64,000 nt of DNA from Pristiophorus japonicus (GCF_044704955.1 NC_092000.1:6076001-6140000); one strand, 5' to 3'; counted from the first letter of the stretch, positions 18,675 to 22,199 are shown. Numbers and translations are program-made. Notes: generated by a model from the sequence alone, not told the origin.

Positions 18675-18777
18675 AAAGACAGAAAAGACTGTTTTAGATT
18701 CAGAAACCTGATCCCAACTGTTTGCAAACGATTTGTAATCTTGGCTCCTCAGGAACCCAACAAAACCCAAGCGAGGC

Positions 18778-20307
18778 ATGGCAGAGGTCGAAGAGGAGAA
18801 GGAAATGACTAGCCAGGGATCGGAGGAGCGTCCCGTTGAAATATCGAAGGTTGAGCGTGAAGATCAAGACGCCCCAAATGAAGAGGCAGCTGGAGAGCTC
18901 ACAATCGAGGAAGAAACGTTTGAGAAGAATGAAGCCACTGAAACAATGATGCACGGGGAGAGGCAACAGGAAGCAGGCAGTGCTGAGATGACTGGTGAAG
19001 GACAAGCGGCTGAGGGGGCTGAAGGCCCTCAGCTTGGAGGGAAAGAAGAGTTGGATCTCCAAACAAGAAACGAAAATGAGGAGTCTGATCAAGGTATCTC
19101 AACGGAGACTGCGAAGGAACTCGAAGAAGGCCTCCTGGAGGCTGTGGACAGCACAGCTGCCGGACTTCAGGCAGGACAATCAGATCGAAACCCAAATGCT
19201 GAAGACCTGTCCAATGAAAATAAAAATGAATCCGTAGAAGGTGATCAAAACCAGGAATCAGGAGGCAAGGGCTGCCAAGAGGAGGCTGAAGAAGTAGCAG
19301 CAATGAAAGACATTGGACATTGTGCTGCTTTGGAAGGCACAATAGGAGAACGTGTGGGTCCCCAGCCCCAACATGTCGTTGATGAAGAAAGGACTGAAGG
19401 CTCAGTAAGTGCAGAGGAGACTCAAACTGGTTCAGAGGCAGATGCTCCGGTAGATGTAGCAGCTGAACCCGACTTCAAGGAAGACTCTGATAACACAACT
19501 GAGACTGCTAACGGTGTGAGCAGCGGTGACAAGCCAGAACAATGTGGCACAGAAGCTGAATGCCTGGCAGGGCAGGTGGAGTTGTCTGCACACACCGTTG
19601 GTGATCACGGCTCAATGACGGCTGTTGCCATTGCACGGCGCAGCAATGATCAATCAAGCGATGGTGACGCACTGCCCAAACAAGCAAAAAGAGTGGGGGA
19701 AGACCACGTGTGTCGTGGCCAAGAGCCACCAGCAGATGTTGAAACTGGGCCAGAAGCCATGGCAGAAACAGCCGACGCTGGTTTGCAAACATCAGCGGAA
19801 AACGCGGAGTCCCATTTGGAGATCCAACCCAGAGGCGTTGAACAAATCCTGCCAACGTCTGCCAAGGGTTGTGACGACAGTCCAGATATCCCACCAGTGC
19901 CTGCTCTGCCGTGCTTTGGGAAAGGTTTGGAAATTTCAGAGGAAAATCAGCACGGGCGCGCAGCAGACAGAACAGCTGAAATTCCAGTTGGCACGGCAGG
20001 CCCTCGAACTGAAGCACCGGCAACGGAAGATGTTGATGAGCAACCGGCCACCACCGATGATGCCGGACGGGGCCAGGATGCACAGGCGGCCGAGGCCACG
20101 CACGGCACAGAAGAGCAAGAATCCAATCGAGACAACCTGACCGAGTCGGTGCCGGCCACGGGATCACCAGCAACAGTGCTTGGGGAGGGCGCAAAGGCCA
20201 GCCTGGAGCAACTGCGTGAGACAGAAATATTAGAGTCTGAGGGCGAAGACGTGCCAGGGGCAACAGCACCAGGAGATGATGGGATAACAGTCGCAGGGGA
20301 ACAATAG
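18778..20307 (+). CDS. Uncharacterised 509-aa Glu/Ala/Gly-rich acidic, probably disordered protein (single large coding exon)
   Basis: 1530-nt non-repetitive ORF free of transposon sequence. Kozak ggcATGG. Acceptor CTCCTCAG at 18752. Possible donor TAG|GTACGC right after the stop. AATAAA at ~22020. Confidence 0.75.
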   Translation: MAEVEEEKEMTSQGSEERPVEISKVEREDQDAPNEEAAGELTIEEETFEKNEATETMMHGERQQEAGSAEMTGEGQAAEGAEGPQLGGKEELDLQTRNENEESDQGISTETAKELEEGLLEAVDSTAAGLQAGQSDRNPNAEDLSNENKNESVEGDQNQESGGKGCQEEAEEVAAMKDIGHCAALEGTIGERVGPQPQHVVDEERTEGSVSAEETQTGSEADAPVDVAAEPDFKEDSDNTTETANGVSSGDKPEQCGTEAECLAGQVELSAHTVGDHGSMTAVAIARRSNDQSSDGDALPKQAKRVGEDHVCRGQEPPADVETGPEAMAETADAGLQTSAENAESHLEIQPRGVEQILPTSAKGCDDSPDIPPVPALPCFGKGLEISEENQHGRAADRTAEIPVGTAGPRTEAPATEDVDEQPATTDDAGRGQDAQAAEATHGTEEQESNRDNLTESVPATGSPATVLGEGAKASLEQLRETEILESEGEDVPGATAPGDDGITVAGEQ

Positions 20308-20981
20308 GTACGCTCTGTTCGTCTCGAGTCTTTTAAGATATAGAATCAAGAAACATAGTTGAAACTGAAACATAGTGATCCAGTGCATTTGCATGCCAGA
20401 AAATTAAAAGCAAACATAGATAGTACTTCCAATAACACCGTCAATTAACTAAAAGATAAAGGATCATTTTCAGTTATAATTATCATTGTGTACAGGAATG
20501 ACAGGCTGTCTCATGGGGAAGTGGGGGTTGTATACCATTTGCACAGGAAGTTAAACTCTCACATAGCTCCTATGAGATGCTAGAAACATTGACATAATTT
20601 CCTATATTGCCAACGCCACCTGTCGCTCAACTACAGAACACATAACGACAATCCTGCACTCACCCCCAAGCTCTCACTCGATCCGAACCTTTCACGACCC
20701 GATCTGCTCAATATGTTAGATATGAAGCAGCATTTTCGAATGGTCTGGAAGCACAAGAGTTGTGCAGGTCTGGACTTTTCCGAGCGTAAACGTCAAATCG
20801 CGCCGACACCGTTAAAATAATATTTCTGGGGCTTCCCCCCGTTTCCCATAATTCAGCTCCCAAGCTGAGCTACTGGGCAGGTTAGAGCAAAACAGCAAAG
20901 CAACGTGCTAACAGGCTGCCTGCTAACTTTCTCAGCTAGGGAGCGGTGTTATGTCGCAGAATCATGGGGCTAAGAGATTAA

Positions 20982-21497
20982 GGGGCCGAAATTGCCCCCT
21001 TCATTAAGGTCCATTACCGCCTCTAAGATGCGGTAACGGGGCAGTAAGGCCTTTCCGACCGGGGGCAGGCAGATCCTAAATTGCCCCCGGGCCAGGTGGC
21101 GGCGGAATCAGGCACGCGCTGACCCCTTACCACCCGGCGGCACGTCCGCCCTTAAAGGGGACGGCGCTCTGCCACCATTTTATTTTAATTGTCGGGCCGA
21201 CCGCTGGCCCGGCCAAAGCCCACCCTGGTGGCCTGGTGGATGCCACTAAAGTGGTTGCAGAGCTCGCAGTGGCCCCTCCACTTTAACTTGAAGGGGAGGG
21301 GGGTTGCTATGCGTCAGCGCGGCGCTGACGACACCGCCCGCCTTCCGCCCCCAGCCCAAGCCCACTTCCACCCCGACGAAATCACACACCAAAAGAGGGC
21401 AAAATCCCTCTACTCTCCGCCCCAAGGATTCGAGCAGAGAACAATCGTTTCATTCAAATTACCCGCCCCATTTGGGCCGGAGGGCAATTTCACCCCT
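20982..21497. mobile_element. Non-autonomous DNA transposon (MITE), Harbinger- or Kolobok-like
   Basis: Imperfect TIRs GGGGCCGAAATTGCCC and GGGCAATTTCACCCC, with (T)TAA on both flanks. Confidence 0.7.
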
Positions 21498-22199
21498 TAA
21501 GGTTCAGCAATAGTTAATAGATCCATTTCATGCGGAAGAATTGCATATTAAGTTTCAGTTTATATTAAGTTCTGCAGTTAAATTAAATAAAAAAAATCAA
21601 GTTAAATTGAATTAAAAAGCCTGCAAATGTAGCAGACAGAAAATATCTGTAAGGCTGTAATTGTCATATAAAATAGTCTCGAGTTATAGTCTCCGCATGG
21701 ATACATCTATATGTTTATGCTTTTCTGTACATGTAACTTAATAAGGTGGCTTATGTTATGTTATGAGGTCGTACTGTGGAGCCTTTTGGAGTCTTGATAT
21801 GTTGAGCTAATAGCTAATGTAAAACCAAGAGTGAGGCTCATGGAGACCTTTCAGCCGAGCTTAAAAGCAAGTCCATTGTGCTGTGAGTGTAAGATTAAGT
21901 CGGCCATCTGAAGGGATGAACTACAACTCACCCGACTGTAACGTGTGTACCTTCTGCAGCAGAGCATCCTTTGTAATCTGAGTATGTTGGCTGTGTACAT
22001 GTGCAACATTTAACTTTTTAATAAAACCTCCCAGCGTTTGACTGTGTCTTCATTTCGTCCTTGGCACAGGGCTGCAGCGGTTTGCCGAGATTATTGCAAA
22101 ACTCATTCCTAACAACGGGAAGAAGAAAAAACTGCTATATTCTGAAAGGCTTTTGCAAATACCTTTCAATGATGGCTGATGTAGAAATGCATAGATCTT

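What the first reader, a model, noticed from the sequence alone, without database searches (positions are those of the whole stretch)
18753..22025. Orphan 509-aa hyper-acidic protein gene convergent with UBL5
Seen: a 1530-nt ORF with no transposon sequence in a repeat-saturated region. It is not a tandem repeat, has no Trp or Tyr, three Phe and seven scattered Cys, and a strong Kozak ATG 25 nt after a good acceptor. An in-frame TAA lies upstream at 18736. The stop is followed directly by a donor-like GTACGC, and AATAAA sits at ~22020. I recognise no domain or ortholog. Inference: either a fast-evolving disordered protein encoded in one exon, or the large terminal exon of a longer gene joined in phase 2. 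An intron straight after the stop would not trigger NMD. This is the best candidate for an undescribed gene here.
Basis: partly seen in the sequence, partly recalled or inferred. Interest (0 to 1): 0.7.

Follow-up and report, generated by a model that had tools for sequence, protein, structure and literature searches.

The report
Shark-restricted acidic disordered protein gene
This is an intact, single-copy shark gene, already machine-annotated but unstudied, with full-length relatives in four other sharks; its very acidic protein is predicted to be shapeless and likely works as an evenly charged chain that loosely binds calcium or basic proteins inside cells.

Summary
The ORF is real: 18778-20307 (+), 509 aa, 24% Asp+Glu, pI about 3.75, single copy in the 5.9-Gb genome, between a VAV1-like gene and UBL5. 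It is not an orphan. The same protein is already in UniRef. Full-length, colinear relatives (46-60% identity, 397-524 aa) exist in Heptranchias, Cetorhinus, Rhincodon and Scyliorhinus; all start MAEV and 4 of 5 end in the same column. None was found outside sharks, and no longer form. Neutral simulations at that divergence kept no frame open (0 of 100 at each of four levels), so the frame is under selection although the sequence changes fast. AlphaFold gives no fold (pLDDT 39). Negative charge is spread more evenly than in shuffles in all five proteins. Two corrections: the AATAAA at 22020 lies inside a dispersed repeat, and another repeat fills 20977-21496, so the 3' end is unresolved. Best reading: a stand-alone, single-coding-exon, fast-evolving intracellular polyanion that works by bulk charge, like mammalian CABS1, without evidence of kinship. 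Expression and function are untested. Modest interest.

The parts
18778..20307 (+). Coding sequence of the 509-aa acidic, predicted disordered protein, in one exon
   Evidence: identical protein in UniRef; four full-length shark relatives; single copy
18733..18777 (+). Predicted splice acceptor (exon starts at 18753) and 25-nt 5' UTR part of the coding exon; in-frame TAA at 18736-18738 lies in the predicted intron
   Evidence: Sequence; acceptor score 3.9 on a recalled matrix; not shown by RNA
15206..15397 (+). Candidate upstream (5' UTR) exon, 192 nt, single copy. Joined to 18753 it places an in-frame stop and no in-frame ATG upstream of the main ATG. It holds one weak-context ATG (15230) that would open an out-of-frame upstream ORF; an alternative acceptor at 15247 would omit it
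   Evidence: Highest acceptor score (8.4) among the 9 plus-strand exon candidates in -10100..24600 apart from one closed 314-nt candidate, donor 3.7; single copy; frame test; no Pfam or PDB match. Inferred
20308..20313 (+). Donor-like GTACGC directly after the stop codon (possible 3' UTR intron)
   Evidence: Score 2.6; GTACGN donors end several exons of the neighbouring VAV gene. Inferred
20403..20408 (+). ATTAAA, nearest polyA-signal candidate if no intron follows the stop
   Evidence: lies in single-copy DNA
20977..21496 (.). Dispersed repeat with inverted ends (MITE-like), in the 3' UTR or its intron
   Evidence: 70 other matches listed, most long ones 69-80% identical; edges from pairwise comparisons
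21607..22115 (+). Old dispersed repeat (possibly a solo LTR) that carries the AATAAA at 22020
   Evidence: 42 other matches, 68-78% for the long ones; pairwise comparisons
23663..23838 (+). Single-copy stretch with a candidate acceptor at 23663 (possible 3' UTR exon); another candidate acceptor at 22070 lies in the repeat
   Evidence: Speculative
18393..18499 (+). U6 snRNA copy in the predicted intron, 250 nt upstream of the acceptor; probably a retrocopy
   Evidence: Rfam RF00026, 100.6 bits
25411..29125 (-). Convergent neighbour, UBL5-like (three 3' coding exons; name recalled from the sequence)
   Evidence: weak Pfam ubiquitin match, E 0.031, below the cut-off

Best explanation
This is a single-copy, intact 509-codon gene shared by five sharks, whose very acidic protein is predicted to be fully disordered and likely works inside the cell as an evenly charged, extended polyanion that loosely binds calcium or basic partner proteins through bulk charge rather than a fold. 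SHOWN: frame, composition, single copy, four full-length relatives with the same start, even charge spacing, no signal peptide-like or membrane-like hydrophobic stretch. INFERRED: one coding exon flanked by non-coding exons; translation from Met 18778; soluble cytosolic or nuclear location; selection acting on the frame and on charge more than on exact sequence. GUESSED BY ANALOGY: low-affinity, high-capacity cation binding or spacer action as in CABS1, probably in a restricted tissue (germ cells are the leading guess).
For: Relatives: Heptranchias perlo 515 aa, Cetorhinus maximus 524 aa, Rhincodon typus 490 aa, Scyliorhinus canicula 397 aa; 59.5, 53.1, 46.1 and 45.5% identity over aligned columns; all 5 begin MAEV and 4 of 5 end in the same column. 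The catshark protein has two RefSeq accessions, which suggests two transcript models differing outside the CDS (inference). Neutral simulation to the observed divergence: mean 11-15 stops, 0 of 100 runs stop-free at each of 4 levels; 0 of 300 for one branch of 0.14 substitutions per site. Asp+Glu is 22-28%, Lys+Arg 5-7% and pI 3.5-3.9 in all five; Glu makes up 26 of 77 invariant columns. Net-charge variance in 10-residue windows is lower than in shuffles in 5 of 5 proteins (fractions 0.010, 0.002, 0.010, 0.057, 0.041; the proteins are related, so these are not independent); the longest D/E run is 3. Disorder: pLDDT mean 39, no residue at 70 or above, pTM 0.15; Atlas model pLDDT 0.35; on the disordered side of the charge-hydropathy boundary; highest 19-residue hydropathy 0.58. 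Analogue: porcine CABS1 is 392 aa, pI 4.07, 46-72% identical among mammals and stains as a calcium binder; the rat protein is classed as disordered (PMC4976239, passages). Net charge and acidic content are the features most often constrained in disordered regions (PMC6634968, passages).
Against: There is no expression, localisation or binding data; the mechanism rests on composition and analogy. Selection on acidity is only moderately supported. In the symmetric simulation the excess conservation of Glu was reached by 2.5%, 8%, 5.5% and 18% of 200 runs. The asymmetric test (observed 22-28% against simulated maxima of 19-21%) cannot exclude decay from a more acidic ancestor. The short D/E runs alone are not unusual (9-49% of shuffles). 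The relatives are gene predictions, and their synteny could not be tested. A five-row alignment is shallow, so a low pLDDT is partly expected. The implied protein rate is near neutral (rough omega 0.3-1), which also fits weak function. Two Cys are invariant (C166, C312) and unexplained.
Confidence: 0.42

Rival explanations
1. It is an acidic chaperone or decoy for histones or protamine-like proteins (prothymosin-, nucleoplasmin- or CCER1-like), for example in sperm chromatin exchange.
For: Net charge -91 and full disorder. CCER1 is a single-exon, glutamate-rich, germline disordered protein of about 400 aa that drives the histone-to-protamine transition (PMC10713660, passages). Each protein has 15-21 CK2-type sites.
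Against: No acidic tract (longest run 3) and charge more even, not more blocky, than shuffles; acidic stretches are the feature tied to histone chaperones (PMC6634968 passage). No monopartite NLS pattern in 5 of 5 proteins. Only one 8-residue helix in the model, whereas CCER1 needs a coiled coil.
Confidence: 0.18
2. It is the diverged ortholog of a gene that also exists, perhaps already named, in rays, chimaeras or bony vertebrates, and it looks shark-restricted only because fast evolution defeats homology search. This is compatible with the best mechanism.
For: Identity is already down to 46% within sharks. The profile used had only 3 sequences. The word-based searches missed 2 of the 4 relatives (against 35), which shows limited sensitivity.
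Against: The HMMER scan of 1.84 billion representatives gave 3 hits, all at E below 1e-30, and nothing between 1e-30 and 1e-3. There was no match in Pfam, PDB or by Atlas features. I recall no such gene beside VAV1 or UBL5 in human (recalled, not tested).
Confidence: 0.25
3. The ORF is the large last coding exon of a longer protein, joined in phase 2 either from an unrecognised upstream exon or by read-through from the upstream VAV1-like gene.
For: The frame is open from the acceptor to the ATG. The first VAV SH2 exon ends in phase 2. Of 11 single-copy donor candidates upstream, 4 give a short Met-led in-frame extension of 1-22 residues.
Against: Five gene models start at the same Met. No longer relative was found. 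The VAV gene has its own last exon and stop about 29 kb upstream, and its penultimate exon ends in phase 0, which hits a stop after 19 codons. The best upstream exon candidate closes the frame.
Confidence: 0.07
4. It is a translated but nearly dispensable protein whose frame persists mainly because of its purine-rich, stop-poor composition and weak selection.
For: The whale shark versus catshark identity of 48.8% equals about 0.39 neutral substitutions per site, close to published Ks values of 0.39-1.32 for three Bmp genes in a comparable species pair (PMC6395752, table passage). The catshark protein lacks about 110 residues.
Against: Neutral change of this very sequence always produced stops. 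Start, end and frame are kept across four other shark orders (order names recalled), and the proteins stay colinear across all indels.
Confidence: 0.08

Closest known systems
RefSeq/UniRef uncharacterised shark proteins XP_067828894.1 (Heptranchias perlo, 'aspartic and glutamic acid-rich protein-like'), XP_078387682.1 (Cetorhinus maximus LOC144669007), XP_038640927.1 and XP_038640928.1 (Scyliorhinus canicula LOC119957192), Rhincodon typus g41428.t1
   Same: Full-length colinear homologs with the same start and composition; almost certainly the same gene.
   Different: 40-54% of aligned residues differ; the catshark form is about 110 aa shorter; the whale shark model ends earlier. Synteny was not testable. 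All are automatic predictions without a known function.
CABS1/CLPH (mammalian spermatid calcium-binding protein)
   Same: About 400-500 aa, pI near 4, disordered, fast evolving (46-72% among mammals), no folded domain.
   Different: No sequence similarity detected (no hit). CABS1 lies in the SCPP cluster region; this gene lies between VAV1-like and UBL5. Calcium binding and testis expression are untested here.
[quoted passage not shown]
   Same: Single coding exon, glutamate-rich, disordered.
   Different: CCER1 has a coiled coil needed for condensates and is nuclear; here there is no coiled-coil-length helix, no NLS pattern and no similarity.
Prothymosin alpha and nucleoplasmin-type acidic chaperones (recalled)
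   Same: High negative net charge and disorder.
   Different: They carry long D/E tracts and an NLS or a folded core; here the longest run is 3 and charge is evenly spread.
GAP43/BASP1/AKAP12-type acidic Ala/Glu-rich disordered proteins encoded mostly by one large exon (recalled)
   Same: Composition and exon layout.
   Different: They have an N-terminal lipid anchor or short binding motifs; none is conserved in the five proteins.

Membership tests
Protein-coding gene under selection | Frame intact in diverged species beyond neutral expectation | tested here: met
   5 of 5 sharks intact; 0 of 100 neutral runs stop-free at each of 4 levels
Protein-coding gene under selection | Transcribed and spliced | not testable with these tools
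   No reads were available to lay on the locus; RefSeq models exist in three other sharks
Species-level orphan gene | No homolog in other species | tested here: not met
   Four homologs
Shark-restricted gene | No homolog outside sharks | tested here: inconclusive
   None among 1.84 billion representatives with a 3-sequence profile; fast evolution limits reach; how well rays and chimaeras are covered is unknown
Intrinsically disordered protein | No stable fold predicted; low hydropathy, high net charge | tested here: met
   pLDDT 39, pTM 0.15; charge-hydropathy 0.396 against a boundary of 0.477. Prediction only
CABS1 | Sequence homology or location in the SCPP cluster region | tested here: not met
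   No Pfam or profile hit; neighbours are VAV-, UBL5- and PIN1-like
CABS1 | Calcium binding; spermatid expression | not testable with these tools
   Needs protein and tissue data
SCPP/SIBLING secreted acidic mineralisation proteins (features recalled) | N-terminal signal peptide | tested here: not met
   The N-terminus is acidic and the highest 19-residue hydropathy is 0.58; the 4 Met-led upstream extensions lack a clear hydrophobic core by eye
Prothymosin/nucleoplasmin-type acidic chaperones (features recalled) | Long D/E tract plus NLS or folded core | tested here: not met
   Longest run 3, no NLS pattern, no domain
CCER1 | C-terminal coiled coil | tested here: not met
   Only helix 115-122 in a low-confidence model
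Transposon-derived ORF or domesticated gag | Similarity to repeats or gag domains | tested here: not met
   Single copy as DNA and as protein; no Pfam match

The most novel reading that the evidence does not exclude
A gene born in the shark lineage and kept for more than 178 million years purely for an evenly spaced negative charge while its sequence drifts at close to neutral speed: a 500-residue polyelectrolyte serving shark-specific physiology, such as calcium buffering in sperm or shielding proteins in a urea-rich cytoplasm.
Probability: 0.15. Interest if true: 0.6.

Novelty: new member of a known kind. Interest (0 to 1): 0.3.

Why it matters
It adds one apparently unstudied, lineage-restricted disordered protein family to the shark gene set. 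It is a clean test case for selection on bulk charge rather than sequence, since five orthologs keep frame, start, end and charge spacing at 46-63% pairwise identity. It does not reveal a new mechanism, and automatic gene models already exist. Its value would rise if synteny showed true shark-lineage birth or if a specific physiological role were found.

Tried and rejected
RNA evidence: no RNA holder was listed, which is no evidence either way. Domain and structure look-ups were blank: Pfam for the ORF and two relatives, PDB sequences with the five-row profile, Atlas features (structure rows had TM 0.14-0.18 for the whole protein and 0.22-0.32 for the fragment, not meaningful). No fold search was run because the model is unreliable. 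No complex prediction was run because no partner is claimed. Longer forms: none (weak). Paralogs in the own genome: none with two single-protein queries; a profile search of the own genome was not available, so very remote paralogs remain open. Alternative and antisense frames over the ORF and upstream unique frames: 1 weak sub-threshold Pfam match among 9 frames. Synteny beyond the flanks: 3 of 143 upstream frames matched Pfam (two LINE domains, one CH domain) and 0 of 133 downstream frames did; these were the 276 frames of 72 aa or more out of 824. Short linear motifs (LIR, SIM, NLS, FFAT, RVxF, SxIP, KEN, PDZ): none shared by all five proteins. The first splice scan was too strict and was redone with calibration. 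Biopython's pI of 4.05 is that program's floor; own bisection gave 3.75. Literature: no paper holds any of five gene or protein identifiers (the library covers only open papers, and supplements were not searched and may list these ids). Searches returned nothing; two searches returned only unrelated titles. Earlier scan notes: nothing by sequence, place or relatives. Rejected: tandem-repeat artefact, transposon ORF, secreted mineralisation protein, VAV1 terminal exon.

Full report
Observation. The reading frame runs from ATG 18778 to TAG 20307 on the plus strand and gives 509 residues. An in-frame TAA sits at 18736, an AG acceptor precedes 18753, and GTACGC follows the stop. No tandem array overlaps the frame, and 0 of 1000 base shuffles gave a frame of 500 codons. 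The DNA and the protein each match one place in the 5.9-Gb genome. It is the only single-copy open frame of 80 aa or more with at least 20% acidic residues in the 464 kb examined; two others are simple repeats.

Neighbourhood. Upstream on the same strand lies a VAV gene. Its SH2 and SH3 exons match VAV1 structures best (E 1.8e-13 and 3.4e-22, against 9e-6 and 7.5e-13 for VAV2), a CH exon lies about 107 kb upstream of the window, and the last exon with its stop lies about 10.5 kb before the window. Downstream and convergent is a UBL5-like gene (name recalled; weak ubiquitin match), head to head with a PIN1-like gene (WW and rotamase domains).

It is not an orphan. The identical 509-aa protein is already in UniRef. 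The word-based search found Heptranchias perlo XP_067828894.1 and Cetorhinus maximus XP_078387682.1. A HMMER profile scan of 1.84 billion representatives returned 3 proteins: the Heptranchias one, Rhincodon typus g41428.t1 and Scyliorhinus canicula XP_038640927.1/XP_038640928.1. All five proteins start MAEV, are colinear throughout, and 4 of 5 end in the same column. Pairwise identity is 46-63%. Nothing outside sharks and no longer form was found, but sensitivity is limited: the word-based searches missed two of the four relatives. Synteny of the relatives could not be tested.

Selection. Neutral mutation of this sequence to the observed protein divergence gave a mean of 11-15 stops, and 0 of 100 runs were stop-free at each of four levels; a single branch of 0.14 substitutions per site was stop-free in 0 of 300. 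The frame is therefore maintained. The sequence still changes fast. The whale shark versus catshark identity of 48.8% corresponds to about 0.39 substitutions per site. Published values for three Bmp genes in whale shark versus cloudy catshark are Ks 0.39-1.32 and Ka 0.02-0.16, at 178 million years (PMC6395752, table passage). This implies a rough omega of 0.3-1, not measured on codons. Acidity is 22-28% in all five. The support for selection on acidity is moderate: the excess conservation of Glu was reached by 2.5-18% of symmetric simulations. Net charge is spread more evenly than in shuffles in 5 of 5 proteins (fractions 0.002-0.057; not independent), and no D/E run exceeds 3.

Protein. AlphaFold2 with the five-row alignment gave mean pLDDT 39, pTM 0.15 and no residue at 70 or above; the Atlas model agrees. 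There is no hydrophobic stretch of signal-peptide or membrane type, no NLS pattern and no tested motif shared by all five. Pfam, PDB and Atlas feature searches were blank.

Gene structure (inferred, no RNA). The best upstream candidate is a single-copy 192-nt exon at 15206-15397. Joined to 18753 it leaves an in-frame stop and no in-frame ATG before Met 18778, which fits the five annotated starts. Against full closure, 4 of 11 single-copy donor candidates would add a short Met-led extension, and one VAV exon ends in phase 2. At the 3' end the donor after the stop scores 2.6, within the range of local VAV donors. A second repeat fills 20977-21496. An ATTAAA in single-copy DNA at 20403 is an alternative end. 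The 3' end is unresolved.

Mechanism. The features that persist are frame, start, end, strong negative charge and its even spacing. That pattern points to an extended intracellular polyanion acting by bulk charge, through loose binding of calcium or basic partners or as a spacer. Mammalian CABS1 is the nearest functional picture: 392 aa, pI 4.07, 46-72% identical among mammals, staining as a calcium binder (PMC4976239, passages). Charge features are the most commonly constrained properties of disordered regions (PMC6634968, passages). A histone or protamine chaperone of the CCER1 or prothymosin type is less likely, because there is no acidic tract, coiled coil or NLS (PMC10713660, passages). 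I put the existence of a stand-alone coding gene at about 0.9 and the bulk-charge, cation-binding mechanism at about 0.4. PMC10620051 was seen as passages only and was not used for a claim; the other papers were seen only as search listings.

Verdict. This is a real, auto-annotated, apparently unstudied shark gene family. No paper was found, within an open-access library whose supplements were not searched. It is a new member of a known kind, lineage-restricted acidic disordered proteins. Interest 0.3.

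Noticed in passing
window 18393-18499 (+), followed by a LINE-like 3' fragment at about 18530-18683: Near full-length U6 snRNA copy (Rfam 100.6 bits) about 30 nt before a high-copy repeat end; probably a retrocopy in the predicted intron.
   Followed up: partly
window 25411-39100: UBL5-like (minus) and PIN1-like (plus) genes are head to head around a CpG-rich single-copy stretch at 37686-39343 (CpG ratio 0.89). 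In human they run in tandem, with FBXL12 head to head with UBL5 (recalled); no FBXL12-like frame was recognised in the scans.
   Followed up: no
G000:C24, about 173 kb upstream of the window (minus strand; L004): A frame resembling the glutamate-cysteine ligase modifier subunit GCLM (name recalled from the translation; no Pfam hit), possibly a paralog kept beside VAV1 in sharks.
   Followed up: no
G000:C24, about 191.5 kb upstream of the window (plus strand; L002:8283-8570): A frame resembling a C-type lectin domain exon (recalled; no Pfam hit at E 0.001).
   Followed up: no
window 15206-15397 (+): The candidate upstream exon is also open for all 64 codons in phase 0-0; no Pfam or PDB match. 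It could be an upstream ORF or belong to another small gene.
   Followed up: partly
window 8711-9956, 17515-17940, 24131-24376, 36463-37413: A 33-nt tandem unit recurs in several arrays and gives long spurious ORFs.
   Followed up: no
window 27124-27983: A purine-rich 14-nt tandem array of about 65 copies in a UBL5 intron.
   Followed up: no
L020 (VAV exons, about 10-57 kb upstream of the window): Several VAV introns appear to begin GTACGN, an uncommon donor type, like the site after the ORF's stop.
   Followed up: no
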